From Naegleria gruberi (taxonomy: Eukaryota): a DNA stretch of 64,000 bases. Positions 2,733 through 44,600 of the stretch are shown in pieces. The notes below the pieces were generated by a model that was given only the letters and a program-made list of their open reading frames with translations, was not told the origin of the DNA and searched no databases. A program made the translations under genes and the position numbers. The stretch lies in assembly GCA_000004985.1 (NCBI GenBank), contig GG738889.1; one strand, 5' to 3'. How positions within the stretch are numbered: the stretch's first letter is position 1; every line of letters begins with the position of its first letter.

Positions 2733-4949
2733 ATGTTGAGTAAATTGAGAGTGCTCGGAGTTGGTGCTAACAAACTTTCAAGGAATTTTCTATCGAATAG
2801 AAGTGTTTCCTTGTCTTCATCATCCTATTTATCAGCCAGATATTCACGATTCAGTTGTGCAATTCAAGTAAATAATGCAAAAGTCAATTCTTCACCATCA
2901 TTTAAATTTCCGAATTTAAATTATCAACATAATGAACAGAGAAATTATTCATCATCATCTTTTGATAATAACAATACTAATCAATCATCATCTTCTGGTG
3001 AAAAATCTAAATTCTCCTTCTTTAAATTGGTCAAGAAATTAGCCAAATATCTATTCCTATCAATCAGTGCAGTTTTAACATTGTTGGCAATTTGTATTCC
3101 ACCTGGTTTATTGGTAGATTTTGATGAGGAATCGAGACGTGATAAATCAGCACTATTCTTTTTGATTTTGGATTCCTATAATGATACTTGGAGTATTTTG
3201 AAGAGATTTGTCACTTCATGTATTTCAATTACACAAGTAGCTCAAGCTTATAGAGAAATGAATAAGAGATTTGAACAACAATTGAAGGATATTTCAACCA
3301 ACAAGTATACTGCTGAGGAGGAAGAGAAAATATTGATAGAATATATTAATGCAAGAAGAGAGACTAATTTGAAGGCAGCCAACTTGCTATTGGACTTGTG
3401 TTTGGTTAATGCTGGTGCCTATGTGAAAGCAGGTCAATATCTTGCCTCACTCAATTATGCCATTCCAAAGGAATTTACAGAAACACTTTCTGTTTTACAA
3501 GACAAGTGTCAACAACATGATTTTTCAGTGACTGAAAAGATTTTGAAGGAAGATTTTGATAAGGATTTCGAAGAAATATTTTCCTACTTTGAAAAAGAAC
3601 CAATTGCCAGCGCCAGTATTGCTCAAGTTCACAAGGCAGTATTGAGAGAATCTGGAAAGAAGGTTGCTGTCAAGGTACAACATCCAAACTTGGAGAAAAT
3701 GTTCAAATCTGATTTGAACACTATGAAATTCTTGATGTGGTCCACAAAGAAGTTTTTCGATTTCCCATTTTCATGGTGTTTACCTGAATTTGAAAAGTTT
3801 TTGATCAGTGAATTGGATTTTGTCAATGAAGCAGCCAATTGCACTCATTTCAAAACAATATTCAAGGATTATCCAAATGATCAAATTGATTCACCATATG
3901 TGCATTGGAATTTGACCAGTAAGAGAATTTTAACCATGGATTTTATTGAAGGAGTAAAATTGAACGACTTTGAAGGAATGAAAAAGTTGGGAATTGATGC
4001 TAAGGAAATAAGTCAATTGATTGTGGACAGTTATTCAATTCAGACATTTGTTCATGGATTTATTCACTCTGACATGCACAATGGTAACTTGCTTGTGAGA
4101 AGATCACCAAAAACAAACAGGGCACAAGTTGTCTACCTGGATCATGGATGTTACAAACACTTGGATGAAGAAACTAGAAAGGATTATTGTAATTTGTGGA
4201 AGGCAGCTATTTTCAGAGATCATGAAAATCTCAAACTCTACACTGAAAAGTTTGGAATTGATGGAAAGTACTATCCTCTCTTTGGTCTCTTCTTGACCTT
4301 CTCCAATTATATGGATAAGAGTTCAACAGCAATGGTCGATCAAAGAAAGAACATGTCAAAAGATGAAGTCAAGAAGATGTTCAACAATATTAGAGAAACC
4401 TTCTTCCCAGGCAGCAAACACAAAGCTCAAGATTTATTCAATATCATTGAAGAAATGTTCAAGAATATGAAATTAGATTTAATTCTTCTCATGAGAGCCA
4501 ATATTCAAATTAGATCCATCACCAAAGAATTGGGTAAACCAATCAATAGATTTGCAACAATGGTTGAATACTGTCTCAGAGGTTTGCACTATGAAAGAGA
4601 AAATTATGGAATGTTATGCAAACCACACAGAGAATCCGATTCCAAGACAGTTCTTGTCACTAAGGTTACACCAACTCCATTCTTCCACACTCTCACCTTT
4701 CAATTATTAAGATTCAAATGTGAATTACTAGCTCTGGAAGTTGTCTTTGTTTTGGCCAGAATGTCCATGAGAGTTTTGAACTTTTTCATGCCAGGTAACT
4801 TTGAATCTGAAGAAGCCATGTCTGATGAGAGAAGAGAAACTGAACATGTTAAGGCAAGAATTGAAGGAAGAAGAAAAATGGAACTTGAATCAAAGGAAGA
4901 CATGGAAGAATTATCTACTGAATCAACTACTCCTGCTCCTGCTCAATAA
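2733..4949 (+). CDS. ABC1/ADCK (UbiB-family) atypical protein kinase
   Basis: The 738-aa ORF starts at a real ATG. It carries the ABC1 signature PIASASIAQVHKAVL...GKKVAVKVQHP and the downstream HxDxHxGN-like catalytic block IHSDMHNGNLLV. There is one predicted TM segment (LFLSISAVLTLLAICIPPGLL) and an acidic C-terminal tail. Confidence 0.8.
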   Translation: MLSKLRVLGVGANKLSRNFLSNRSVSLSSSSYLSARYSRFSCAIQVNNAKVNSSPSFKFPNLNYQHNEQRNYSSSSFDNNNTNQSSSSGEKSKFSFFKLVKKLAKYLFLSISAVLTLLAICIPPGLLVDFDEESRRDKSALFFLILDSYNDTWSILKRFVTSCISITQVAQAYREMNKRFEQQLKDISTNKYTAEEEEKILIEYINARRETNLKAANLLLDLCLVNAGAYVKAGQYLASLNYAIPKEFTETLSVLQDKCQQHDFSVTEKILKEDFDKDFEEIFSYFEKEPIASASIAQVHKAVLRESGKKVAVKVQHPNLEKMFKSDLNTMKFLMWSTKKFFDFPFSWCLPEFEKFLISELDFVNEAANCTHFKTIFKDYPNDQIDSPYVHWNLTSKRILTMDFIEGVKLNDFEGMKKLGIDAKEISQLIVDSYSIQTFVHGFIHSDMHNGNLLVRRSPKTNRAQVVYLDHGCYKHLDEETRKDYCNLWKAAIFRDHENLKLYTEKFGIDGKYYPLFGLFLTFSNYMDKSSTAMVDQRKNMSKDEVKKMFNNIRETFFPGSKHKAQDLFNIIEEMFKNMKLDLILLMRANIQIRSITKELGKPINRFATMVEYCLRGLHYERENYGMLCKPHRESDSKTVLVTKVTPTPFFHTLTFQLLRFKCELLALEVVFVLARMSMRVLNFFMPGNFESEEAMSDERRETEHVKARIEGRRKMELESKEDMEELSTESTTPAPAQ

Positions 4950-5231
4950 TTTATAGATTTGGAAAATGGTGAATTGTAAATACAAATTGTAAATATTAAA
5001 TGTAAATGATTCAATATTAAATCAATAGTGTAACATTTATGTCTGTAATTAGCCATCAAATAATATTGTAATAGTGCAATAGATTGAATCATTCACTCCG
5101 TGCCAATCAATTAGACAAGGGCGTACGATTGTATGAGGGAAATAAATGGCGAAAAATTGGGATTACGGCTCAATTATGTTCTATTAATTGTTTTGGATAA
5201 TTTTAATACATAAACAATAAAAAACAAACAA

Positions 5232-5375
5232 AATGAACTCAAACGGTGGATGTGGATGCTCTAATGGTGCTACTTGCAATTGTGGAAGCAATTGTGCATG
5301 CAGCGGATGTGGTAAGGTTGAAGAAAAGCCACAAGAACAATCATGCTGTTCTGGCGGTTCATGCAGCAGAAAGTA
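5232..5375 (+). CDS. Metallothionein-like small Cys-rich protein (47 aa)
   Basis: The CDS runs ATG at 5232 to TAA at 5373-5375 and is absent from the ORF track because it is under 60 aa. It translates to MNSNGGCGCSNGATCNCGSNCACSGCGKVEEKPQEQSCCSGGSCSRK. This has 10 Cys in 47 aa arranged as CxC/CxxC clusters around a charged linker, with no aromatic residues. It sits in an otherwise empty 960-bp intergenic gap with an A-rich leader. Confidence 0.55.
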
Positions 5376-5908
5376 AATGTTGTAAATTTAGTGTATAAAA
5401 TAGAAAAACAACAATTATTGAGTGTTTTGAATAATAAATACAATAGTGTTTATTTAGAAAATTATTATTTATATTTTTATTTTAAATGATTGAAAATTAT
5501 CGTTCCGAACTTGCATCAAACATGTGTCTCTGAAACGAGTCAACGATGAGAAATCATGTTATTTGAATTAATCTTGAAACCAATTAATTTGATGATATAA
5601 AGATATATTGCTTCTCCCTACAATGTTTATTTCTAATCTTCTTCATCTGAACATCATTTATCAAGTGAGGAACAAGTGAAAAGCATTTACAAAAACCAAT
5701 TGCACACTTTACAAAATGTTGATGAACCACCCAGTTGCAAACCAGAAATGAAGGCTTCATGTTGAGAACTTGTCTTATCGCTTGCTGATCAACCAGAAGT
5801 TTGCTGCCAGCAGAAGCAGGAACTTGCCAGCACAATCATTTTAAAAATAAAACACTTTAAAAAAAATTCCTATAACTCTTTTCACCACCACATACAAACA
5901 CAGTCAAA

Positions 5909-8900
5909 ATGTCCAACTTTGATGTGAATTCAATCATTGAAAAGGCTGATTCCAAGGATAAGGATATTCGTCATATGGCCCTCTATGACTTGAGTAACGA
6001 ATTACAAAAGGAAAATTTAAAGTTGNNNNNNNNNNNNNNNNNNNNNNNNNNNNNNNNNNNNNNNNNNNNNNNNNNAATTATTATCATTATTGATCACTTG
6101 AAATATTTTTAACTCTCTCTTCCATCAATTATGTAATATNTGTTTTATCACATTCTATGTGATTAATACAACAAATCTCTACATTGATCATCAACATTGT
6201 GCGATTCACAATTTAATTGTGATTCCTCGTGATGATAACAACAACAACAATAATACTTTTTGATCTTATATAGTTTGCCTCACCTTGTTAACAAGATGAG
6301 CAAGGTTCAAATTGAAAACAGTATTTCATCACTTAGTAGCAATATTCTCAAGGGTGAAGATGAAAAGAGAGACATTGCTGCTATTGCTTTAAAGACTGTC
6401 ATTTCTGAAATTCCAATGGAAAATGCTCAAGCTCCTATCAAGAAATGTATTACACCACTCCTCCAAGGTCTTTCAAGTGATAATCCAGAAATCAAGTTGG
6501 TTGCTCTTGATGTTTTGTCTGATTTATTGGCTCGTTTCGGCGCTATGGTTGCTGATGAACATGAAAAGTTACAAAGTGCCTTCTCTGCCGAATTAAAATC
6601 AAGCAGAGTTTCCGTTCGTAAAAGAGCTATTGCTTGTCTTGCTGCCTTGTCAGTTCATACTAGTGATAAATTATTTGATGCCTTGTTGACAAGTGTTGTC
6701 AATGGTATTGATAATGTTATCAAGACAATGAAGAAGCAAAAGGATAATAGCAAAGTTGAAGAACTTTCTACTTATATTCAATCTTGTAGTGCTATTTCAA
6801 AGACTGCTGGTCACAGATTTGGTAAATATTTGGCTAGAATTATTCCATTGTTCATGGATGCTGCTGAAATTATTGCAGGATCTTTGGATGAAGATGATGA
6901 AGAAATGGTTGATACTAATACTGAAATTAATGATGAAGTTCGTGAATATATTACTCAAGCTTTCGAAGCCTTTGTTACAAGATGTCCAGATGAAGTTGCC
7001 AGATATGTTGATTACGTCATTATTATTTGTAAGGAATACCTCGAATATGATCCAAACTATTCATATGATGATAGTGAAGATGAAGCTGAAGAAGCTGATG
7101 TAATGCAAGATGATGATGATGAAGATGGTTTGGGAGATGATCTTGATGAAGGTGGTTTATCTGAAGATGATGATGTTACATGGAAAGTTCGTAGATCTGC
7201 TGCTAAATGTTTAGGTTCATTGATTAGATCTAGACCAGAATTATTGGCATCTTTCTATACTGAATTGTGTTCTGAAGAAGATATTTCATTGATTCGTCGT
7301 TTCAAGGAAAGAGAAGAACCAGTTAAACTTGATATTTTCAATGTTTTCATTGATTTGTTGCATCAATCATACTCTACAAAGACTTCTCCAAGTGGTGAAG
7401 TTTCATACAAGCAACATGATGAAGTTAAATTTGTTGAACAAACAAAGGATGCTATCATGAAACGTATTAAGAAGCAATTGAAAGAAAAGTCAGAAAAGAC
7501 TAAAGTTGGTGTTTTCCAAATTTTAAAGTCTTTGGTTGTCACTATGCAAGGTGGTTTGTCTAAATATATTAAGGATTTAGTTCCTTCTGTTTGTTCCGCT
7601 TTAGCTGAAAAGGGAGAACAATCTTCATTGAAATTAGAAACTTTATCATTCTTGAAGACTTTCATTCAATTCCACAAGCCAGAAGAATTTAAACCACATT
7701 TGGAAACTTTAATGAAGGCTGTTTTCAATTGTGTTAATGATAAGTATTACAAGATTATCACTCAAGCTTTAAGAGTTTGCGGTGAATTGGTTTTGGTTGT
7801 CAAGACTTGTTCAAGTGATTCTAATTATGGTTCTCTTGTTACTCAATTACAAAATAACGTTTATGAAAAGTTGAAGATTCAAGATATTGATCAAGGTGTT
7901 AAAGAAAGTGCTATTACTACAACTGGTTTAATTGTTTCTCACTTGGCTGACAAGTTACCAAACTTGAAGGATACTTTAAATATTTTAAAGGAAAGATTAC
8001 AAAACGAAATTACTCGTCTCACCACTGTTAGAACTTTCACTGTTATTGCTCAACATAAGGTTGATATTTCATCTGTTTTGGTTGAAACTGTCAAGTTATT
8101 CTCTGATTTCTTGAGAAAGGATAACCGTGCTCTTAGACAAGCTGCTTTGGCTGGTTTGAGTCAATTCTCTGTTTCATACAGTGCTAAGATTGATTCTGGT
8201 TTGTTCAGTACTGTTATTGAAGAAGCTGCTGAAGTTATGAATGAAAAGAAGTCTGACTTGCATTTGGCTCATTTGGCTTTCAAGTTAGTTAAACAAATTG
8301 TTGATGCTAATCCATCAACTTTATCTTTGATTCAAAAGTTCGTTTTGCCAAAGATTTTGGAATTGTTGGCAAGTCCAACTTTGCAAGGTAACTGTTTAGA
8401 ATCTCTCTTGGTTGTTTTGGCTATGTTGGTTTCATCAGTTGGTTTTGATAACATTTTGAAACAAGTTTTGGCTATTCCAAAGGAATCTAAGCAAGTTTTC
8501 ACTAATATTGGTAAGGCTGTTGCTGCCATCTGTTCTGCTGGTTCTCAATCAAATAAGACTTCAACTATTGAAAAGTTTGCTAAGGATTTAAAGTCAAAGG
8601 ATGATTCTGCTAGAATGTTGGCCTTGTTCACTTTGGGTGAAATTGGTCGTACTATTGATTTATCTTCATCTGGTACTGTTAGTCAAGATATTGAAGCTTG
8701 TTTCGAAGAAGAAGGTTCTGAAGAATTGAAGAATGCTGCTTCATATGCTCTTGGTAATATTTCTGTTGGTAATTTGGCCAAGTTCTTACCACAAATCATT
8801 AAGGGTATTAGAGAAAGTCCAAAGAAGAAGTACTTGTTGATCCACTCTTTGAAGGAAGTTATTACTCAAGCTGATGCTAACAAGCTTAAGGAATTCATTC

Positions 8901-11512: not shown

Positions 11513-12875
11513 TTAATCCTCTGATTCTTCATCAGTGTTGGCTTGAGCATTTTCATCTAGCTCATCATAATCAGATTTCATCTCATCAAAGTTAAATAGT
11601 ACCATTGGAAATTCTTCTGATTCCATTCCTTCTCCCACAAACCAGTGGCAAAAAGCTCGTTTGGTATAACTTGGCATGTATGCCTTTTGTATTTCAATAA
11701 AGGTATTCATGATGGCAGTCGTATTATGTGCAACATGAGCAGTATTGGAAAATTTGAAAGGATCATTATTAATGATTGGAGTTTTAGAGAGTGAAGAGCT
11801 GATACTAGTTTGGACATATTTGCTAAATATTGAAGAAGCATCAGGAGATCGGAAATATGAGCTCGTATCAATAATATTTCTCAAAGAGTATCCTGAACCT
11901 CTCCAAGAAACATTTAAGGCAAGTGTTTTACCTGATGCAAGGTCAATATTATTCATTCTATTCGAAGCAGATACTAATTCAGAAGGATTATATTTTCCAA
12001 TTTCTGTGAAATCCGAAAAGTGATTCGAAATAAAGTTGACTCTTTTGAATGGTACCAAATGTTCATAAATTGATTTCATTGATTTTCCACTACGTATTCC
12101 AAATCGTTGACTAGATGTAAGACTGGAAATTGCTTGAGCTATGAGAAAGTTAATATCCTTATATTGTGGATTTTCCAAGCCATGCATTTTGCTTAAATTA
12201 TACAGTGATGTGTTATCAAAGAAAAAGCTTGCATCCACTGCTTCTCTAATTGCAGAAATTGAGAGTAATACATTATAGGAGGCCACTACCTCATTGGCAT
12301 ATTTAGAACATGGCAAGACTGAAAAGGTACTCTTTGAAAATTCAGTAATTTTGCAAATAGTATCAAAAACATACTGTTGAAATTTTCGTTTCATTCGCCA
12401 ATTTTGTACATAATGATTCAGCCCATCCAGATCCTGTTCCTCCAGACAATGAATGTGTCATCATGACTCCCTGTGGCGAATCACATCTCTCCAATAATTT
12501 TCTCAATCTATTCTCGATATCATCACTCTTTTCTTTGTACATCCAATATTTTCCCCTCGAATAAATCGATGCAGCACTTTCCTTTCCTCTTATTAAATTA
12601 TCCTTCTTATGTATTTTTGAATAGGGTGAAGAGGAAACTCCCAATGAATCCAAAACCTCAGGATCCGAATCAACAAACAAACTTCTCGATGAGAAAACAC
12701 CCTCCGAATTTTCATCAAAAACCGATCCAATATTATTATTTTCAATACTATCCACCTCAGAGAGTTGCATCTTTCCATCAGGTCCAACCATGTGCTCTCT
12801 CGCCAACAATTCCCACAATTCCAAACCAATCTGAGAACCAGCGCCACCAACATGAAGGAAAATGAGTTCGTGCAT
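11513..12875 (-). CDS. Highly divergent alpha-like tubulin (2 exons; 43-nt intron at 12332..12374)
   Basis: Exon 1 (12875..12375) reads MHELIFLHVGGAGSQIGLELWELLAREH…PDGKM …IRGKESAASIYSRGKY… SGGTGSGWAESL. These correspond to alpha-tubulin HVGQAGVQIG..CWEL, ITGKEDAANNYARG and the GGGTGSG GTP-binding motif. Exon 2 (12331..11513) has …LPCSKYANEVVASYNVLLSI… and the C-terminal tubulin signature KRAFCHWFVGEGMESEEF followed by an acidic tail. The two ORF-track pieces are joined by a GTATGT…CAAAG intron of 43 nt that restores the frame (167 + 272 codons, about 439 aa). Confidence 0.7.
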
Positions 12876-13006
12876 TTTTTTTGTATTTTTTCGAGTTGTT
12901 GTTGTTCGGTTGCAGGGAACTTAGTTGGAACTTGGTTGTAACAATAGGAACAAGTAATTATTACAGGATAGTATTATGTATTAATTTTGTTAATGTTTAA
13001 CATGAA

Positions 13007-13079
13007 GCCGACATAGCTCAGTTGGGAGAGCGTAAGACTGAAGATCTTAAGGTCCCTGGTTCGATCCCTGGTGTCGGCA
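13007..13079 (+). tRNA. tRNA-Phe (anticodon GAA)
   Basis: GCCGACATAGCTCAGTTGGGAGAGCGTAAGACTGAAGATCTTAAGGTCCCTGGTTCGATCCCTGGTGTCGGCA folds into a 73-nt cloverleaf. It has a 7-bp acceptor stem (GCCGACA/TGTCGGC), a D-loop AGTTGGGAGAGC, anticodon loop CTGAAGA (GAA), a TpsiC arm GGTTCGATCC and discriminator A. It is a near-canonical eukaryotic tRNA-Phe sequence. Confidence 0.85.
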
Positions 13080-31831: not shown

Positions 31832-34800
31832 ATGCAAGTTGCACCTGCAAGAGACCTCAAGCCTTGGAGAACATGTCTAAAACGGCTTGATAATTCTCAA
31901 CTCGAAGCGCTCTATGCTTACTTTTCTGCTTACAAACAACACTCAACAAATACAGCTTCTACCTCTTCTACTCCACCACAACAGGATAATAGTATTGAAG
32001 GAAAGAGAATTGTAATATTGGAAGTCATTGAGAGGAAATTGAGTAGAGGAGAGAGGATTAGTCTCATTGAAGAATTTGTTGATTACTTTGAACAAAATGG
32101 AACGTGGGATTCAATTAAGGATGATGTTATTATTCTAGAAGCGGAGGAGAGAAGATTGAGTGGAGGATTATCTTTTCGAAGTTCTCTTGATGGATTACCA
32201 GCAGGTGCTGGAGGAGGTGCTGCCACTGATGTAACTGGAGGAACACAAGCAACAGCAACCTCATCATCCTCTTCTTCAATGAGTACCTTCACAAAGATAC
32301 AGACAGCAATTTCTAATATCGGAATTGCCTTACAAGAAAAGAGGAGAGTTAAGTCGAAAAAATCCTTCATCTTTTCGATAGTAATGAATATATGGATGAT
32401 GTGGACAAGTATTTTCATGCCCTCGCTGGANNNNNNNNNNNNNNNNNNNNNNNNNNNNNNNNNNNNNNNNNNNNNNNNNNNNNNNNNNNNNNNNNNNNNN
32501 NNNNNNNNNNNNNNNNNNNNNNNNNNNNNNNNNNNNNNNNNNNNNNNNNNNNNNNNNNNNNNNNNNNNNNNNNNNNNNNNNNNNNNNNNNNNNNNNNNNN
32601 NNNNNNNNNNNNNNNNNNNNNNNNNNNNNNNNNNNNNNNNNNNNNNNNNNNNNNNNNNNNNNNNNNNNNNNNNNNNNNNNNNNNNNNNNNNNNNNNNNNN
32701 NNNNNNNNNNNNNNNNNNNNNNNNNNNNNNNNNNNNNNNNNNNNNNNNTGGATATGCCATTCTGTTTACAAGTTTGATTGTTCCCTACTTGATGGCTGGC
32801 TCTTTAGATTGCGACTCTAACAGTAATGTTATCATTGATGAGGTAGCTTATCAGGTTTTGAAAAGATTTCCCACACAGCCATGCTATCTCACTCCAAATG
32901 TCATATTCTATGCTATTTTCATTGCATCGATACCATTGGCAGTGCTTACTGTTGCCATTTCAACCATGTTGGTGGCCAATCTCCATCCAATGAATACTTC
33001 ATGGTTTGCAATGCAACACAGTTTCTTTAAATTATCCTTTAATGTTGTGAATAGTACGAGTATATTCTTCCACTTTCTTATACCAGCTGAATTTGCGTAT
33101 GGAAGAGCTATTGTTCACATTGCTTTTGCTCTTTTGAACATTTACATTTTTTGGAAAATGATACCATACTTTAGAAGAATTGAAAATTCATTCTATTTTG
33201 GAGCTATTACTGGTCGATTGGGTTGTGCTGTTGGTGTTTTAATTTCCTCATTAGTTAATCCAACAGATTCCTCTGAATTGGGTCTTGAAATGATGGGAAT
33301 GACCTTGGGTATTATTCTTTTGTGCTATCTGGTTGGTTTTATTACTATGGAAGTTTACACTCGTTTGGTATTTAGATATGTTAGAGATGTTTTGGCAAGG
33401 AATTCAGAGAGGGAGAAGGAAGCTGTAATGATTTATCACATCTTTGAGGAGAAGGATAGATTGAGGTTTTTACAAATGTTTCTTCGATTTGCATTGAGAG
33501 GTAGTCATGATATTGCAGATTTGGCAACTTCATTTGTCAAGTCAGCTGCTGCCTCAAAATCATTCAATGATCCAGAGTTGTTAATTCTGGGAGCGATGCT
33601 TGCTGCCTATAGATGGGAAGACTATGGCTATTCTTATGCCCAAGTGTTGATTAGAAGAGCCAACAGAGCCAACATTCCATACGCGATTCGTTTCTATTTG
33701 GCCGAAAGATCAAGAGAATTGGAAATTGACCAAACTAAGGATATCAATTCTGGACACAACTTTGTAGAAATCAAACATATTGTTGAGAAGGTTGAAAAAA
33801 AGACAGAAGAGCTCAGATCTCTACACAAACATTTTTGGAAGGAGTTAATTAATGAAGTTCCTAATATGGGCAAGCTGGATCAAGTTAATAGAAGAATGAC
33901 CTCGCTTTCGAGTGATATAGAGACTACCTATTCTAATTTAATGACAAATTACTCAAGGGAGAGACAAGTGCTCAGAGGATACGCCACCTTTCTTGAAAAC
34001 TTCAAATTCGATAAGGATCTAGCTCACGAGCTTGTACAGGAAGTTGCCAAAATTGAAGAGGAGGAATCAATAAGAGTTAAGAGAAAATCCTCTGGTTTGC
34101 ACATTCCCTATAACAGTAAGAGAAAGTTTGAGTCGTACAGCATTAGAAAATCCATTGAAGAACGTCCTATACAACCACAAGCAGATCAAGTTGATGATTC
34201 ATTTTCTGGAGTGGAAACTCAACGTGATGTTTCTAAAAAAGAATCCTTATTCAGAAATGCAATTAGAAATGGTGGAAATTCCAAAGTAATACTTTCTTCA
34301 CTTGTAATATTTGGATTTTTCACACTTACATTTTTCCTCTATTACTTGATTTTTGGTGTATATATTAGTATGAACGCTGGTGAGCATGTTAGTAGTGCTT
34401 ATTATATGTGTAAACCATCAACATCAACCATTGGTTTGCTGAGAGAAATAAGAATGAAACAAAATCTTAATCAGGTGATGACACTATTTCCAGAAGCAAT
34501 AACAATTTCCCCAATTATGGTAAATATTTCATTAGAAGAACACAAGACAAGACTCAGTGAATATGATTCCTTTTTCAAACAAATTACAAAAGAAGCACAA
34601 CAAAATAGATTTACGAGAGAGCTCTACGAGATATTTACCAAACCAGATATTACTATTTTCGTTCCATCTGTTCCAAAAAATAGTGGAACTTTGGATTTTA
34701 CCACAACAGATCAGAAAAATGTTAGTGTATTCGAATTAATTAATATTATTTCTGAATCAGCTACATATTTCAAAAATTGGAAAGGTGCAGATTACAACAA

Positions 34801-37305
34801 CACAATCCAATCGTTTGAGTTTATGTACGTTTGGGATAACAAGTTGATTGCCAGAAATTCTTTTGTAAAATTTTGTGAATCTGCCATTGCTGCCAATTCA
34901 GATGAAACAAACCAATTTTCCTTTATATTGAATGTTTCTTATGGTGCTACTGCTGGTGGTTACTTGATCATTTCTATTATCTATTTGATTGTGACAAGAT
35001 ATCAAATGGCAGAAGTTCCCCATGTTTTGAACATTTTCAAAAATAACCTTTCGAAAAATGTTGTGGGAAAGATCTATCATGAGATGAATGAGAAGAATGA
35101 CGATGATGCCACAACTCACCTTCCAAAAACTTCATTGACCAGACCTAATAATTTATTCTTTCTTTATGGAGTTTTGGTTATAGTATCATTGATACTTGTT
35201 GGTGGTCTTATTCTCATTGAATCGAATGTTAATTGTACTGATTCCATTCAAACTTCACTAAATATCAAACATGGAACATCTGTTCTCAGAGTTATTCACA
35301 GAGCAAGTTTCAGAGTTGGAGAATATTTTGCTTATTTTGGTCTACCAAAAACCCATCTCAACAGTGATTACATGACCACCACAGCAGAGCTTGATGGATT
35401 TTTAACAGATATCAAATCCCTGATGGCTCAATTGTTTACTGATTGGACAGCTTTAGTTTACGGTTCTGGTGGATCTGATGTTAGTGTTGGTAAATATTCA
35501 ACAATTGACAGATTAATTCAAGGAGTATCTTCTTGCAGTGATAATTCCACAATGGATGATACAGAATTAGTGGATTTGTGGAAAAACTGTTATGGATTGG
35601 AAAGAATGATTTCAACCTTTACTACTGACGTTTCCAAACTAAACGAACAGGTATACAATCAAAATTATGTGAAGAATTTTGCAAATTTCTTAAATGGATT
35701 TTTGGATATCTTTGTTCAGACAAATATTCTTTCAGACCACTTGATCAAATTCTTGGATTTATTTGTAGAAAATTCATCTTCACCTAATTTTGAGATTACT
35801 GGTGTATTTGGTGCATTGTTTTGCTTGGTTTGCATCTTTTTGTTCTATTCAATGTTTAATACATTGCAAAATAATCATGCTCAATTGATGTGTTTGAGAA
35901 ATATGTTAAATTATGTTCCAGTTGATGCCTTGGATTCGAATGAAGTGGTTAGAAACTTTATTCTTTACAATGCCATTCCAAGTCCATTCTCCAAGGTCTT
36001 TAAGAGTAAGACCGAGAATCCAACTGATGAAAACTCAAAGGTGAGAAGTGTTTTGAATTCTTCTGTTGAGGGAGCCTTCATTGCAGATGAAAATGGTTTT
36101 GTAGAGCTGATTAATCCAGCAGCTCAAAATATTTTCGGATTCCAACAACAATCTGATGTGGTTGGTACTCCTTTCATTAACATATTCGATACTAAGGATC
36201 ATGAACACATCAAAAAGATTATTCAAACCATGAAGGATAGTATGAAATTGTCAAATCACAAAAATGGAGAAGTTGCTGAGGTGGATTGTGTAAGAAAGAA
36301 TGGAACACAATTCCCAGCTATGGTTAATATGTTTATTGTTATTTTTGATAATTCACCTAACTTGGTTTGTTTCTTGAAAGATGTCACATCAGAAAAGAAG
36401 CATAATGCTATAATTGCAGAAGAGAAGGCAAAATCTGATAGATTATTGAGAAATATTCTACCAGAGTCTGTTGCTGCTCGTTTGAAATCGGGTGATACTT
36501 TTATTGCTGAAAAGTTTGCAGATATTACTTGTTTCTTTAGTGATATGTAAGTATTCAAGTATCAATTTTTATTCGAATGATTTTTAATTATTTTCATAGG
36601 GTTGGATTTACAAATCTATCATCAGGATTGAATCCAAATGAATTGGTAGGCATGTTGAATACAATTGTTAATGGATTTGATGCCTTGACTGATAAATATC
36701 AATTGGAAAAGATTAAGACTATTGGAGATGCCTATTTCGTAAGTAATTTCAATCTCTTCTCATAATTTCTAACACAATATATTTCTATCATAGGCTGTTG
36801 GTGGTATTGGAAATACTCAATCAGATCACCCTGAGAGAACTCTTAGATTTGCAATTTCAACCTTTGATGTGATTAAGGATTTCAATATGAAAAATCCAAA
36901 TACTCAAATTAATATCAGATGTGGAATCAATACTGGTGGTTGTGTTGCTGGTGTAATTGGTACGAAGAAGTTTGCATATGATTTGTGGGGTGTAAGTTGT
37001 CAATTTATTTTACTTTTATTTGAATGATTCAGGATACTATTAATGTTGCTTCAAGAATGGAATCAAATTCAAAACCAGGCCGTATTCAAATATCACGATC
37101 TACTTTTGAAAGAGTTCATGATTTGAAATTTGATTTTGAAGAAAGAAGATTGGATATTAAAGGAAAAGGCCTTTGTGCTTGCTATTTGCTTCACCAAAAA
37201 CATCACGAGAATCCAATAATTGAAAAGAAAGTAGAGGACCCATCCCCTCACATGTCTAGTTCAGTTTCTGCAACTACGATTGCCAGTACAAATGGAACCA
37301 ATTAA
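31832..37305 (+). CDS. Polytopic membrane adenylyl cyclase with PAS domain (class III nucleotidyl cyclase), at least 4 exons, containing scaffold gap
   Basis: The large exon 31832..36546 includes the 32431-32748 N gap. It has two or three TM clusters and a PAS fold (FIADENGFVELINPAAQNIFGFQQQSDVVGTPF…MVNMFIVIFDNSPNLVCFLKDVTSEKKH). The cyclase domain spans exons 36600..36738, 36794..36991 and 37033..37305. Its motifs are FSDM|VGFTNL, KIKTIGDAYF|AVGG and YDLWG|DTINVASRMES. The introns are GTAAGT…CATAG, GTAAGT…CATAG and GTAAGT…TTCAG. The Lys in EKIKTIGD and the Asp in YDLWGDT are the adenine-specifying pair. Confidence 0.8.
32431..32748. other. Assembly gap (318 N) inside the cyclase gene
   Basis: Uninterrupted N run. 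The reading frame shown across it in the ORF track is an artefact of gap length. Confidence 0.9.
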
Positions 37306-41605: not shown

Positions 41606-44600
41606 TTATTGAAGAAGCAAATCCCATTCTTCAACCTTTTTCAATATCACATCAATAGAAGGTCGTTTACCTGGCTCATGACTCCACATCTGGCGAATCA
41701 CTTTTGTCATTTCAAAAATCAATTCATGGTGAATTACTTGTTCCTTATCAAGAAATTCCTCACACCATTTCTTACACTCTTCACAAGTTGAGAATGGAAT
41801 GATTGGCCTCAAATTCTCCTCACAAACACTCTTATGGAAGTGATACGAACTACTAAATGGTGTTGGTTTGGTGATTTTCAACTTTTTGAGAACGTTTGGA
41901 TCTGAGCTATGGTAAGGTTCAATAATTTCGAATAATAATTGCCACATAATGATGGCCAAACTGTAGATATCAATAGAACGGGCGTCCTCTCTCTCAATTT
42001 CACCAGAGAAAAGCTCCGGAGCCATAAATGAGCTGGTTCCAATCTGACTGGTAATTGCTGAAATTGTGTGAGAACAAAAAGCTCGTCCTAATCCAAAATC
42101 ACACAGTTTGGCAGTTCCACTTTTATCGAGAAGGATATTGGCTGGTTTCAAATCTCTATTCCACAAATGAAAGATTATTTTAGGTGAAATTTAGTATTAA
42201 TACATACCTGTGGACAATGAAATTCGGTTCCAAATGATGCAAATAATAAATTCCACTCACAATGTTCCTCAATATTGCCAATTTTTCATTGAGAGTGCAT
42301 TTGGAATAGCCACGTTGCATGGATGCAATCATTGCCTCTAAACTCTTATCCATGCACTCCATGGCAATGAATCTCTTTGTTGGTGTCGATGAAACACCAT
42401 AGAAATTGATAATATTTGGATGCCTTAATTTGCTTAATAAAATTGCTTCCACTTTGAAATCATTTTCTGAAATACTCAAATTATTCAAATCGAATACCTT
42501 GACTGCAATTGTCATTCCATTGAATTTGGTTGCAAAAACAGAACCCATTCCACCTTCTCCGAGTCTCTTGATTGGTTTGTCCATATTGAGTTGTTCTATT
42601 GGAATGATGAATTTATCTGCCTCTTCCACATAGTAAGAACTAGATCCCATACTTGATTCATAATGGTCCAACAATCTTTCATCTAAAACCAGATCAGTTT
42701 CAGTCAGTTTCTTATTCTTTCGTTTTACAGAAATATACGAAATAAAGATAATGAAACAAATGGCAGTAACGATGAGTAAAACAATGGCAGATGAGAGTCC
42801 CAATCCGAGGGCAATCGTGTTGATACTACAATCCTTTCCAAAGTAGGAAGATTGACAAAGACACTCATCCTGTTTTACACATGTTCCATGTCCTGAGCAA
42901 GCACTTGATCCTGATTGACCAAAACAAATAGCAACCCCACAATCTTTTCCTGTATATCCACTATTACAAACACAATTATCTGGTGCTGTACAAGATCCAT
43001 TTCCATGTGAGCAAACTTCCACAGATGTCTTTGGATAATTAAAGCAAATTGGTAATTGACAGTTATTGCCAAAAAAACCTTGATTGCAAGAACATTGATT
43101 AATATCGAAACAATTTCCGTTTCCACTACACACTGATTCTGAAATATTTGCTGGTATTCCAAAACATATTGGAATACACATTGTCAAATCTCTACTCAAA
43201 AGGTAACCCTCTCTACAAAATGGTGTCAGTTGTCTCACGACATTTTGAGTAGAATCTGATAAGTAAATCGATCCAGAACTAGGGGAAATTGTAAATCCTT
43301 GTGGAGATGCCAAATAATCACTCGTTGCCAAAATTTCATTCAAATCCAATTCTTTCACAGTTGAATTTCCAGCAATTGTGTAAACTAGATTAATTCCATT
43401 TCGTCTACTTATTTTCCTAATCATTGCATTCAGTGAATCAATGAAAATAATATCCACAAAATCAGGAGGTACCAATTTCACTATAGTTGGATAATTAAGC
43501 TCTGCCTGTTCAGCAATTCCATCTATGTATCCAGGATTTCCACTGCCTGCAATGGTGGAAATTGATCCATTCACATGAATCATTCTAATTCTATTATTAT
43601 TCGAATCGGCGAATATAATTTCATTATCCAAATTGATGGCAATTCCGGTTGGCTGAGCCAAAAGTGCAGACTTAGCATCATTTGAATCTCCATTAAAACC
43701 ATATCCCTTTCCTGCAATTGTTGAAATTATTCCATTTCTATCAATCTTTCTAATCTTGTTATTTCCAAAATCGGTCACATAAATTTCTCCATTGAGAGGA
43801 GAAACAGAAACCGCATAAGGTTTAATTGAAGCATAGGATGCCAATCCCTTATCACCTATTCCACCAACTATAGTCTTGACGATACCAGTTTTAAAATTGT
43901 AAAGTTTCACCAAATTACTGTAAGTATCAGCAATTGCCAGATATTGAGTTCCACCACTTGGTAACTGGAGATATCTGACGCTTGAAGGATAGCTGAGCTT
44001 GGATTTGATTCCCAATCCCTCCTCAAATTCTCCACCTCCAATCAATGTATCAGCAATTCCAGTAGAAATCGAGACAGTCCTAATCCTATTATTATTAGTA
44101 TCAGCTATAAACATGGTATTCTGTGAAATGGTTATACTTTTAGGGAGATAGAGTTCCATATTTCTAACAAATCCACCGTCACCTCCATTACCAATTTCAC
44201 CTGTGCCTGCATAGGTATCTGTAACACCATTAATAGTGGCATATCGAATTCTGTGATTACCCGTATCGGCAATGCAAATCATTTGGCTATCTACCACGAC
44301 AACATCCTCAGGAAAGCTCAATTGAGTTTCAGTTGATAAAATATTATCACCATTGAATCCTTCATGTCCAGAACCAGCAACTGTCTTTACCATTTGAGAT
44401 GTACTACTGCCCAAGTAAATTGATCTAATTCTATGATTTCTAGAGTCGGCAACCAGTAAAACTTTATCAGCAGAGTCAATATGAATTCCTTTTGGCTATA
44501 GAGTTTGTAAATATTGCAAATTATCAAAAATTTCAAACTTACACTATTAAATGTTGTGTTCAACAGTGTGTTATCTCCATTAAAACCCTTCACTGTTGGT

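What the first reader, a model, noticed from the sequence alone, without database searches (positions are those of the whole stretch)
5232..5375. Unannotated 47-aa metallothionein-like gene
A clean ATG…TAA frame encodes MNSNGGCGCSNGATCNCGSNCACSGCGKVEEKPQEQSCCSGGSCSRK. It has 10 Cys and no aromatic residues, with Cys-x-Cys and Cys-Cys pairs flanking a charged linker. This is the metallothionein hallmark. It lies in an otherwise empty gap between the ADCK and CAND1 genes and is too short for the ORF track. Small MTs are routinely missed by gene callers.
Basis: seen in the sequence. Interest (0 to 1): 0.5.

Follow-up and report, generated by a model that had tools for sequence, protein, structure and literature searches.

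The report
Unannotated metallothionein gene in Naegleria
The 47-codon reading frame is a real, conserved but apparently unannotated gene of the amoeba Naegleria (including the brain-eating N. fowleri) that encodes a small cysteine-rich metal-binding protein closely resembling the copper metallothionein of the fungus Neurospora, a component missing from published accounts of how these amoebae handle copper.

Summary
The ORF exists at window 5233..5376 (+), one base off the stated coordinates, and encodes exactly the peptide quoted. The window is Naegleria gruberi. The ORF is not a chance frame. N. lovaniensis and N. fowleri carry an uncalled 45-codon ortholog at the same place, directly downstream of the ABC1/ADCK gene. 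All 10 Cys are conserved. dN/dS is 0.10-0.14, with most substitutions at third codon positions. Only this frame is open in all three species. The ORF is a conservation island: 68-93% DNA identity against 38-47% in the flanks. Residues 7-26 reproduce the published 7-Cys pattern of family-8 (fungi-I) copper metallothioneins, [CXC]-X5-[CXC]-X3-[CXC]-X2-C. The only significant solved-structure match is the N. crassa Cu-MT (z = 6-8 against composition-matched shuffles). A charged linker and a CC-x4-C tail follow. Conserved upstream motifs, an A-rich start context and a downstream AATAAA complete a plausible gene. No homolog is present among about 15 billion called proteins, apart from one N. gruberi-like metagenome ORF. 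The Naegleria copper literature does not mention an endogenous MT. Metal binding, metal preference and expression remain untested.

The parts
5233..5376 (+). Single-exon coding sequence (47 codons plus TAA) of the Naegleria gruberi metallothionein-like protein
   Evidence: Translation. It has the best codon-usage score of the six frames. Orthologous ORFs occur in N. lovaniensis (L002 12680-12817) and N. fowleri (L005 12815-12952), with omega 0.10-0.14.
5251..5310 (+). 7-Cys box (Cys7-Cys26), C-x-C-x5-C-x-C-x3-C-x-C-x2-C, the predicted metal-thiolate cluster core
   Evidence: The pattern is unique in the window and absent from 100 shuffles. It is in register with N. crassa Cu-MT 1T2Y. It equals the family-8 pattern quoted in PMC4755600.
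5314..5343 (+). Cys-free charged linker (KVEEKPQEQS)
   Evidence: Sequence. The KVEEK core is invariant in the three species, while linker length varies by in-frame indels.
5344..5364 (+). C-terminal CCSGGSC tail (3 further Cys), invariant in the three species
   Evidence: Alignment A5. With the preceding residues in N. lovaniensis and N. fowleri, it resembles the Cup1 C-terminus EETKKSCCSGK and the vertebrate MT linker KKSCCS. A metagenomic N. gruberi-like strain has C39Y here (window 5348 G>A).
5103..5111 (+). Conserved upstream CCAAT-type block CCAATCAAT (-130 from the ATG)
   Evidence: Present at -130, -133 and -137 in N. gruberi, N. lovaniensis and N. fowleri, while the surrounding DNA is unalignable. 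As a word it is not rare in the window: 5 copies against 2 expected.
5144..5157 (+). Conserved upstream element AAATGGYGAAWAAT (-89 from the ATG); candidate cis-regulatory site
   Evidence: Found at -89, -93 and -100 in the three species. It is the only exact match in the window. The core AAATGGYGAAW occurs once in each 22-kb N. lovaniensis and N. fowleri locus, at this position.
4964..4974 (+). Second, distal copy of the core element (AAATGGTGAAT) in N. gruberi
   Evidence: This 11-mer is the longest word shared by all three upstream regions. The null maximum was 10 in 3000 simulations.
5176..5181 (+). Conserved proximal block ATGTTC (-57 from the ATG)
   Evidence: Collinear at -57, -70 and -82 in the three species. 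It is short, so weak on its own.
5433..5438 (+). AATAAA, a possible poly(A) signal 57 nt after the stop codon
   Evidence: AATAAA lies 57, 54 and 73 nt after the stop in the three species. This is only suggestive in AT-rich DNA.

Best explanation
Window 5233-5376 (+) is a genuine, intronless, apparently unannotated protein-coding gene of Naegleria gruberi. It is conserved in position and sequence in N. lovaniensis and N. fowleri. It encodes a 45-47 residue cytosolic metallothionein. The N-terminal half is a 7-Cys box of the Neurospora/Agaricus (family 8, fungi-I) type, which also matches the first seven Cys of the vertebrate beta-domain. By analogy, this box should wrap a Cu(I)-thiolate cluster of about 5-6 Cu(I). 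A charged linker connects it to a CC-x4-C tail. The tail's three extra thiolates could enlarge the cluster towards the Cu8Cys10 type seen in yeast Cup1, or could allow binding of about three divalent ions (Zn/Cd). The likely role is buffering or detoxifying copper and possibly other soft metals, alongside the Cu-exporting ATPase already described in N. fowleri. Shown: the ORF, the Cys pattern, purifying selection, synteny, conserved upstream elements and absence from protein databases. Inferred: transcription, metal binding, Cu preference, stoichiometry and physiological role.
For: The ORF and peptide are confirmed. The organism is N. gruberi, because the ABC1 neighbour is 100% identical to an NCBI N. 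gruberi protein. Orthologs lie directly downstream of ABC1 in N. lovaniensis and N. fowleri and are not among the called genes listed for those loci. All 10 Cys are conserved and indels are in-frame. Omega is 0.12, 0.14 and 0.10, with Fisher p of 3e-6, 1e-5 and 1e-3. Substitutions by codon position are 7/6/19. Only this frame is open in all three species. ORF DNA identity is 68%, 70% and 93%, against 38-47% in the flanks. The codon-usage log-likelihood is best of the six frames, and synonymous codon choice matches the window's genes (p about 0.016). The 7-Cys skeleton is unique in the window and is reproduced by 6.6e-5 of composition-preserving shuffles. The only PDB hit is the N. crassa Cu-MT 1T2Y, with 7 of 7 Cys in register (E 0.03). 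It stays the top hit with a Naegleria-only profile (E 0.054). Smith-Waterman z is 6.2-7.9 against shuffles. A profile search reaches only the N. crassa 'copper metallothionein' and Fusarium relatives. The N. lovaniensis and N. fowleri proteins hit Pfam PF00131 Metallothionein at 20.5 and 17.3 bits. The family-8 Cys pattern and its Cu-thionein character come from PMC4755600. The figures of 6 Cu(I) per N. crassa MT and Cu8Cys10 in Cup1 come from PMC13107397. A conserved, collinear upstream element is specific to this locus. A is at -3 and AATAAA follows the stop in all three species.
Against: There is no expression evidence of any kind; RNA-seq and proteomics could not be queried. Database E-values to known MTs are marginal (0.03-0.054 against PDB), and the Pfam scores fall below the curated cutoff. 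The N. gruberi protein itself has no Pfam hit. These limits are expected for 25-residue low-complexity domains, but the family assignment therefore rests on Cys register plus shuffle statistics. No ortholog was seen next to ABC1 in Willaertia magna or Acrasis kona, so conservation is shown only within one genus. Cu(I) preference is inferred by analogy only. A 10-11 Cys peptide could equally be a Zn/Cd-thionein. One N. gruberi-like strain carries C39Y in the tail, so at least that Cys may be dispensable.
Confidence: 0.85

Rival explanations
1. It is a real metallothionein-type gene, but it functions mainly as a Zn/Cd-thionein or a general thiol redox/ROS buffer rather than a copper protein.
For: With 10-11 Cys it is close to the 9-Cys vertebrate beta-domain, which forms M(II)3Cys9 clusters (PMC13107397). 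The N. lovaniensis and N. fowleri proteins align to positions 1-37 of the vertebrate MT Pfam profile. The copper-stress proteomics of N. fowleri pointed to the Cu-ATPase and antioxidant enzymes (PMC7578549).
Against: The closest relatives by a wide margin are the N. crassa-type proteins (z 6-8 against 2.4-3.8 for human MT2). These are described as definite Cu-thioneins (PMC4755600). The proteomic studies searched annotated databases, so they could not have detected this protein.
Confidence: 0.25
2. It is a chance ORF in intergenic DNA that happens to be Cys-rich; there is no gene.
For: ORFs of 40 aa or more are common in the window. The N. gruberi peptide has no Pfam hit. It is not in annotated protein sets.
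Against: The ORF is conserved with start, stop and all Cys in three species whose flanking intergenic DNA is unalignable. Omega is 0.10-0.14, third-position substitutions are in excess, and indels are in-frame. The Cys skeleton is far beyond chance.
Confidence: 0.02
3. The conserved block is a non-coding element (an RNA or a regulatory region of ABC1 or a neighbouring gene), and the open frame is incidental.
For: It lies only 200-290 bp downstream of the ABC1 stop codon in all three species. No transcript data are available.
Against: The substitution pattern is codon-like (7/6/19 by position; pS 0.58-0.64 against pN 0.14-0.15), and gaps come in multiples of three. Conservation begins at the ATG and ends at the stop codon. 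Rfam finds nothing here. Upstream motifs keep their distance to the ATG (-130/-133/-137), not to the ABC1 stop (154/69/152).
Confidence: 0.03
4. It is a secreted disulfide-rich peptide (toxin, antimicrobial or signalling peptide) or a copper chaperone of the Cox17/Atx1 kind, not a metallothionein.
For: It is small and Cys-rich. The Naegleria-only profile gives a very weak hit of the tail to a spider knottin toxin (6GFT, E about 1).
Against: There is no signal peptide or any hydrophobic stretch; the only hydrophobic residues are 1 M, 1 V and 2 A. There are no aromatic residues. C-x-C spacing is typical of thiolate clusters, not of cystine knots. No Pfam chaperone or toxin family hit appears at E <= 10. 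The toxin hit is at noise level.
Confidence: 0.03

Closest known systems
Neurospora crassa copper metallothionein (family 8 / fungi-I; PDB 1T2Y) and Agaricus bisporus Cu-MT
   Same: The 7-Cys skeleton C-x-C-x5-C-x-C-x3-C-x-C-x2-C is identical. The intervening residues are similar: 15 of 24 are identical to the N. gruberi protein, including CGCS...CNCGS...C.CS.CG. Both lack aromatic residues and are small cytosolic peptides.
   Different: The Naegleria protein is nearly twice as long (45-47 aa against 26). It adds a charged linker and a CC-x4-C tail, giving 10-11 Cys instead of 7. The host is a heterolobosean (Discoba), not a fungus. N. lovaniensis and N. fowleri also have an extra Cys (CGCC). 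Whether the similarity reflects common descent, transfer or convergence cannot be resolved from about 25 low-complexity residues.
7-Cys building blocks of Cryptococcus neoformans CnMT1/CnMT2 and Tremella mesenterica TmMT
   Same: All share an N. crassa-like 7-Cys module joined to other Cys segments by Cys-free spacers. In those proteins each module forms a Cu5 cluster, and extra short Cys groups add further Cu(I) (PMC4755600).
   Different: Those proteins contain 3-6 tandem modules (122-257 aa). Naegleria has one module plus a 3-Cys tail. The C. neoformans MTs are reported virulence factors; no such role is known here.
Vertebrate metallothionein beta-domain plus linker (family 1; Pfam PF00131)
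   Same: The first seven Cys are in the same register. The N. lovaniensis and N. fowleri 'KKSCCS' equals the vertebrate interdomain linker and the start of the alpha-domain. The Pfam alignment covers profile positions 1-37.
   Different: Scores are below the Pfam gathering cutoff (20.5 and 17.3 against 23 bits), and the N. gruberi protein has no hit. There is no 11-Cys alpha-domain. Similarity is weak once composition is controlled (z 2.4-3.8).
Saccharomyces cerevisiae Cup1 (family 12; PDB 1AQS/1RJU)
   Same: Both are small Cu-thionein-sized peptides with about 10-12 Cys. The C-terminal motif EE.KKSCCSG is nearly identical to the N. lovaniensis and N. fowleri VEEKKSCCSGG.
   Different: The rest of the Cys pattern does not align. 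Overall z is 1.1-3.0. There is no Pfam Yeast_MT hit.

Membership tests
Metallothionein superfamily (operational definition) | Low molecular mass and high Cys content | tested here: met
   47 aa with 10 Cys (21%) in N. gruberi; 45 aa with 11 Cys (24%) in N. lovaniensis and N. fowleri.
Metallothionein superfamily (operational definition) | No or very few aromatic residues or His; Cys in C-x-C, C-C or C-x-x-C motifs | tested here: met
   No F/W/Y/H. There are three C-x-C pairs, one C-x2-C and one CC.
Metallothionein superfamily (operational definition) | Binds metal ions in metal-thiolate clusters | not testable with these tools
   This needs recombinant protein with ESI-MS, CD and UV spectroscopy. 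Structure prediction was not attempted because apo-MTs are disordered and AlphaFold2 does not model metal clusters.
Metallothionein superfamily (operational definition) | Expressed, often metal-inducible | not testable with these tools
   No transcriptome or proteome data could be queried. The only indirect signs are conserved upstream elements, an A-rich start context and AATAAA.
MT family 8 (fungi-I; N. crassa / A. bisporus type) | Cys pattern [CXC]-X5-[CXC]-X3-[CXC]-X2-C (PMC4755600) | tested here: met
   The match is exact in all three Naegleria proteins. The N. gruberi protein also fits the stricter signature C-G-C-S-x4-C-x-C-x3-C-x-C-S-x-C. I recalled that signature from memory and tested it as a regular expression. 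N. lovaniensis and N. fowleri differ from it at the two Ser positions.
MT family 8 (fungi-I; N. crassa / A. bisporus type) | Sequence similarity beyond the Cys residues | tested here: met
   15 of 24 residues are identical. SW z is 6.2-7.9, with 0 of 2000 composition-preserving shuffles reaching the score. PDB E is 0.03 and 0.054. The database E-values are marginal because the domain is so short.
MT family 8 (fungi-I; N. crassa / A. bisporus type) | About 25-26 residues with exactly 7 Cys (single-cluster peptide) | tested here: not met
   45-47 residues with 10-11 Cys, through an added linker and CC-x4-C tail.
MT family 8 (fungi-I; N. crassa / A. bisporus type) | Fungal origin (the Binz-Kagi families are taxon-based) | tested here: not met
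   The host is Naegleria (Heterolobosea), identified through a 100% identical N. gruberi ABC1 protein and orthologous loci in N. fowleri and N. lovaniensis assemblies.
MT family 8 (fungi-I; N. crassa / A. bisporus type) | Cu(I)-thionein binding about 6 Cu(I) | not testable with these tools
   The literature values for N. crassa and A. bisporus MTs come. There are no data for Naegleria.
MT family 1 (vertebrate; Pfam PF00131 Metallothio) | Score at or above the Pfam gathering cutoff (23 bits) | tested here: not met
   N. lovaniensis 20.5 bits, N. fowleri 17.3 bits, N. gruberi no hit at E <= 10.
MT family 1 (vertebrate; Pfam PF00131 Metallothio) | Two-domain beta (9 Cys) plus alpha (11 Cys) architecture | tested here: not met
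   Only profile positions 1-37 of 64 are covered, and there is no alpha-domain.
MT family 12 (S. cerevisiae Cup1) | Cup1-type Cys arrangement or a Pfam Yeast_MT match | tested here: not met
   No Pfam hit. Only the C-terminal KKSCCSG motif is shared, and overall z is 1.1-3.0.

The most novel reading that the evidence does not exclude
The Naegleria protein may be a surviving single-module form of an ancient eukaryotic metallothionein. It combines, in one 45-residue peptide, three features: the 7-Cys box of fungal family 8 and the vertebrate beta-domain, the KKSCCS junction of vertebrate MTs, and the EE.KKSCCSG tail of yeast Cup1. Its presence in Discoba would mean this module predates the split of the major eukaryotic supergroups rather than arising repeatedly. 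It would also mean MT families now treated as unrelated share a common ancestor. A corollary is that it could be an overlooked copper-resistance determinant of the pathogen N. fowleri, as the 7-Cys-module MTs are in Cryptococcus.
Probability: 0.15. Interest if true: 0.7.

Novelty: new member of a known kind. Interest (0 to 1): 0.5.

Why it matters
Published models of copper handling in N. gruberi and the lethal N. fowleri rest on Ctr importers, a Cu-exporting ATPase and antioxidant enzymes. They do not mention any endogenous metallothionein (PMC7578549, PMC9035749). Their proteomics searched annotated gene sets, which would not contain this gene. A conserved MT with an N. crassa-type copper box supplies a plausible missing sequestration arm. 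It can be tested immediately by re-analysing existing data and with standard yeast complementation. In Cryptococcus, MTs built from the same 7-Cys module are reported as virulence factors (PMC4755600). The N. fowleri ortholog therefore deserves attention. The finding also extends this MT module outside the opisthokonts to Discoba, which bears on whether MT families are homologous or convergent. Finally, it is a concrete case of a conserved small gene missed in three genome annotations.

Tried and rejected
1. Translating the stated coordinates 5232-5375 gave a frame full of stops. The ORF is offset by +1.
2. The bacterial promoter and terminator scan is irrelevant for a eukaryote and was discarded.
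3. Exhaustive HMMER against 1.84 billion representatives returned only the same-species metagenome ORF P0001 and P0002. P0002 is a 568-aa bacterial repeat protein matched through low-complexity composition and was rejected as spurious.
4. The metagenome contig L001 is 99% identical to the window, so it is the same species and useless for selection analysis. It only contributed the C39Y variant.
5. Exact-protein look-ups of the window's own peptide and neighbours returned nothing on record.
The back-translated C-G-C...C-x-C-G pattern also matches (TGYGGN)n microsatellites. Only a few fungal-type small MT ORFs (L036, L123) were usable, and no Naegleria-type tail was found.
7. A stricter pattern found nothing in viral contigs.
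8. Willaertia magna and Acrasis kona ABC1 loci show no MT-like ORF within the fetched flanks. Their whole genomes could not be scanned.
9. I checked whether the top copper-induced N. fowleri protein NF0109980 was this gene. It is not: it is a 101-133 aa His/Cys-Pro protein.
10. A GTAC (CuRE-like) core upstream in N. gruberi is, from reading the upstream sequences, not conserved in N. lovaniensis, so I did not put it forward.
11. Structure prediction was deliberately not run, because apo-MTs are disordered and metal clusters are not modelled.

Full report
**Observation**

The stated coordinates (5232-5375) are out of frame by one base. The ORF is at 5233..5376 on the + strand. It translates to exactly the quoted peptide, MNSNGGCGCSNGATCNCGSNCACSGCGKVEEKPQEQSCCSGGSCSRK*.

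Upstream is an ABC1/ADCK-type atypical kinase at 2733-4949 (PF03109). Downstream is CAND1/TIP120, starting at 5909 with an intron that contains an N-run.

A 47-codon ORF by itself means little here, because dozens of ORFs of 40 aa or more occur in 12 kb. The cysteine arrangement is what matters. The back-translated skeleton C-x-C-x5-C-x-C-x3-C-x-C-x2-C occurs once in the 64-kb window and in none of 100 dinucleotide-preserving shuffles. Only 66 of 1,000,000 shuffles of the peptide's own composition reproduce it. The only other Cys-dense stretches in the window are EGF-type repeats inside large proteins.

**Organism**

The ABC1 protein is 100% identical to an NCBI 'predicted protein [Naegleria gruberi]'. 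Its next-best relatives are from N. fowleri and N. lovaniensis (64% identity each), Willaertia magna (60%) and Acrasis kona (45%). The window is therefore N. gruberi (Heterolobosea, Discoba), not a fungus or an animal.

**Is it a gene?**

I fetched the ABC1 loci of the relatives.

- N. lovaniensis (L002) has an uncalled ORF at 12680-12817, about 200 bp downstream of ABC1: MNSQNCGCCNGGACNCGSNCSCKGCGQEKVEEKKSCCSGGSCQRK.
- N. fowleri (L005) has MNSQGCGCCNGGACNCGSSCSCKGCGQEKVEEKKSCCSGGSCQRK at 12815-12952, also directly after ABC1 and also not among the called genes listed for that locus.

All 10 Cys of the N. gruberi protein are conserved, and the two other species have one more. The start (MNS), the end (RK-stop), the KVEEK linker core and the SCCSGGSC tail are invariant. 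Length differences are in-frame indels.

Nei-Gojobori estimates and related comparisons:

| Pair | omega | Fisher p (syn vs nonsyn) | ORF DNA identity | Flank identity (200 bp each side) |
|---|---|---|---|---|
| N. gruberi - N. lovaniensis | 0.12 | 3e-6 | 68% | 40%, 42% |
| N. gruberi - N. fowleri | 0.14 | 1e-5 | 70% | 39%, 38% |
| N. lovaniensis - N. fowleri | 0.10 | 1.3e-3 | 93% | 47%, 40% |

- Differences fall 7/6/19 on codon positions 1/2/3 for N. gruberi versus N. lovaniensis.
- Shuffled sequences align at about 31% identity, so the flanks are close to background.
- Only the sense frame is open in all three species. Every other frame has a stop in at least one.
- In N. gruberi the frame has the best codon-usage score of the six (+4.1 bits against -3.8 or lower).
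- Its synonymous codon choices resemble those of the window's long genes (p about 0.016).

These data exclude a chance ORF. They also argue strongly against a non-coding conserved element.

**Gene furniture**

- All three orthologs have A at -3 (aaaATG), like most confident genes in the window, and an AATAAA 54-73 nt after the stop.
- The upstream regions are otherwise unalignable but share three collinear blocks at similar distances from the ATG:
  - CCAATCAAT at -130/-133/-137
  - AAATGGYGAAWAAT at -89/-93/-100
  - ATGTTC at -57/-70/-82
- Their distances to the ABC1 stop vary much more (154/69/152 for the first block). They therefore belong with the small gene, not with the ABC1 3' end.
- The longest exact word shared by the three upstream regions is the 11-mer AAATGGTGAAT. 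The longest in 3000 first-order Markov simulations was 10.
- The core AAATGGYGAAW occurs three times in the window, twice upstream of this ORF (4964 and 5144). It occurs exactly once in each 22-kb N. lovaniensis and N. fowleri locus, at the orthologous position.
- This is a candidate cis-regulatory element of unknown factor specificity. I did not recognise a known metal-response element in it.

**What is the protein?**

A phmmer search of all PDB sequences with the N. gruberi peptide returns a single hit. It is 1T2Y, the N. crassa copper metallothionein (E 0.03). Residues 5-28 align to 1-24, 7 of 7 Cys are in register, and 15 of 24 residues are identical.

A profile built from the three Naegleria sequences alone still ranks 1T2Y first (E 0.054). 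These E-values are marginal because the domain is about 24 low-complexity residues, so I controlled for composition directly:

| Naegleria proteins compared with | Smith-Waterman z | Shuffles reaching the score |
|---|---|---|
| N. crassa MT | 6.2-7.9 | 0 of 2000 |
| Human MT2A | 2.4-3.8 | 4-39 of 2000 |
| Yeast Cup1 | 1.1-3.0 | 14-303 of 2000 |

A profile search of the 5.8-billion-protein index with Naegleria plus N. crassa-type sequences reaches only 'copper metallothionein [Neurospora crassa]' and short Fusarium proteins, and no other protist.

Pfam has no model that detects the N. crassa MT. The N. lovaniensis and N. fowleri orthologs do match PF00131 (Metallothionein, vertebrate type) at 20.5 and 17.3 bits, just under the 23-bit cutoff. 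They cover profile positions 1-37, which are the beta-domain, the linker and the start of the alpha-domain. The N. gruberi protein gives no Pfam hit.

The literature defines family 8 (fungi-I) by the N. crassa and A. bisporus proteins. These have 26 residues and 7 Cys in the pattern X2-[CXC]-X5-[CXC]-X3-[CXC]-X2-C-X3, with definite Cu-thionein character. The same paper notes that MT genes are often mis-annotated or missed by automatic annotation (PMC4755600). The Naegleria N-terminal half fits that pattern exactly.

**Architecture and likely mechanism**

The protein is one 7-Cys box (Cys7-Cys26), a charged Cys-free linker, and an invariant CC-x4-C tail.

From the literature:

- The N. crassa MT binds 6 Cu(I).
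- The A. bisporus MT binds about 5.8 Cu.
- The homologous 7-Cys boxes of Cryptococcus MTs form Cu5 clusters.
- Extra short Cys groups in Tremella MT add further Cu(I).
- Cup1 forms a Cu8Cys10 cluster.

By inference, the Naegleria protein would bind about 5-6 Cu(I) in the box. The tail thiolates could either extend the cluster towards Cu7-8 or sit loosely. The tail resembles the Cup1 C-terminus: EETKKSCCSGK against VEEKKSCCSGG. My typed Cup1 sequence is an exact match to 1AQS. The tail also resembles the vertebrate interdomain KKSCCS. This may be coincidence, since whole-sequence z is at most 3.8.

A metagenome contig from an N. gruberi-like strain is 99% identical over 2.6 kb. Its ABC1 gene has 12 synonymous and 2 non-synonymous differences. 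Its one difference in the MT ORF is C39Y, in the CC doublet. This hints that this thiol is less critical, or it may be an assembly error.

The absence of any hydrophobic segment argues for a cytosolic protein and against a secreted disulfide-rich peptide. Metal preference (Cu against Zn/Cd), stoichiometry, inducibility and physiological role are all inferred, not shown.

**Comparison with what is known, and novelty**

The protein works like a family-8 Cu-thionein, and I would call it a metallothionein. It fails two defining features of family 8: length with Cys number, and fungal origin. It also does not reach the Pfam threshold for the vertebrate family. It is best described as a new member of the MT kind, with an N. 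crassa-type box plus a tail.

Neither the peptide nor its orthologs are present among about 15 billion called proteins, apart from the metagenome ORF P0001. That collection does contain the NCBI N. gruberi, N. fowleri and N. lovaniensis proteomes.

The N. fowleri copper-detoxification paper discusses MTs only for fungi, and it attributes tolerance to a Cu-ATPase and antioxidant proteins (PMC7578549). Its most copper-induced protein, NF0109980, is a different His/Cys-Pro protein of 101-133 aa. The 2022 paper on copper metabolism in N. gruberi and N. fowleri never mentions a thionein, and its N. fowleri proteomics searched an AmoebaDB database (PMC9035749). A review counted two GenBank entries labelled 'metallothionein' in Naegleria without details (PMC7216689). 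Whatever these are, they are not homologs detectable with this peptide or profile.

**Limits**

- There are no expression data.
- Conservation is shown only within one genus. No syntenic copy lies next to ABC1 in Willaertia or Acrasis, and their genomes could not be scanned.
- My single metagenome scan was swamped by microsatellites.
- Deep homology cannot be separated from convergence with a 25-residue Cys/Gly/Ser/Asn-rich module.

**Verdict**

This is a conserved, apparently unannotated Naegleria metallothionein with a Neurospora-type 7-Cys copper box.
- Confidence that it is a real MT-type gene is about 0.85.
- My estimate that it is primarily a Cu(I)-thionein is about 0.55.
- Interest is 0.5.

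Noticed in passing
L002 12680-12817 (+) = PYSW02000052.1:129726-129863; L005 12815-12952 (+) = VFQX01000052.1:512503-512640: The N. lovaniensis and N. fowleri orthologs of the small ORF are absent from the called genes listed for those GenBank assemblies. The same gene therefore appears to have been missed in three Naegleria genome annotations.
   Followed up: yes
L001 (ENA ERZ929261 / ERR1078381 contig k127_70293), aligned to window 2822-5450: A metagenome contig is 99% identical to N. gruberi over ABC1 and the MT gene. It carries C39Y in the MT tail (window 5348 G>A) and an 8-bp deletion at window 5070-5077 in the intergenic region. I could not identify the sample's origin; no paper in the library cites PRJEB11402.
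   Followed up: partly
window 5377-5908 versus L002 12818-17392 and L005 12953-15981: ABC1-MT adjacency is conserved, but the MT-CAND1 interval is not. N. gruberi has 532 bp. N. fowleri has a 438-aa gene on the + strand plus a tRNA-Gly(GCC) at L005 13173-13243. N. lovaniensis has a 217-aa gene and a 438-aa gene on the opposite strand. This suggests local insertion or inversion since the species split.
   Followed up: partly
window 13007-13079 (+): A tRNA-Phe(GAA) gene. It is the only Rfam or ARAGORN hit in the window.
   Followed up: yes
window 6026-6075, 6140, 32431-32748: Runs of N (assembly gaps). The first lies in the apparent first intron of CAND1. The largest interrupts the 1572-aa ORF at 31832-36550.
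   Followed up: no
window 42180-44414 (-) and 59523-63890 (-): Two large animal-like multidomain proteins. One is an NHL-repeat / teneurin-type EGF / protein kinase receptor-like protein. The other is a G8 + CEMIP beta-helix + EGF + VWD protein. They account for the other Cys-dense stretches in the window.
   Followed up: partly
L015 (JAEEGL015639401.1, 27% GC), minus strand; match at L015 2812-2873: A 7-Cys box of the same type (...DECGCASGGECTCGDNCKCESCGCDK*) sits at the C-terminal end of a long stop-free frame in an AT-rich metagenome contig. It may be an MT exon or an MT-like C-terminal domain in another AT-rich eukaryote.
   Followed up: no
L077 10067-10128 (+) and L082 2874-2935 (+): Two metagenome contigs encode an identical 86-aa ORF. 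It has a Cys-rich N-terminal half (MSKHGTCGCGCENESKQCHCDETCTCGCQEGKPCTCGYECDCGCCG...) and a Cys-poor C-terminal half. The protein is MT-like and unidentified.
   Followed up: no
L036 (-, ORF start 224) and L123 (-, ORF start 2721): Small N. crassa-type MT ORFs in metagenome contigs (MPDSGCGCSGTSTCSCGSSCTCTACG..., MGDCGCSGASTCNCGADCSCSSCG...). They probably continue across an intron after the final CG. I used them only to widen the search profile.
   Followed up: partly
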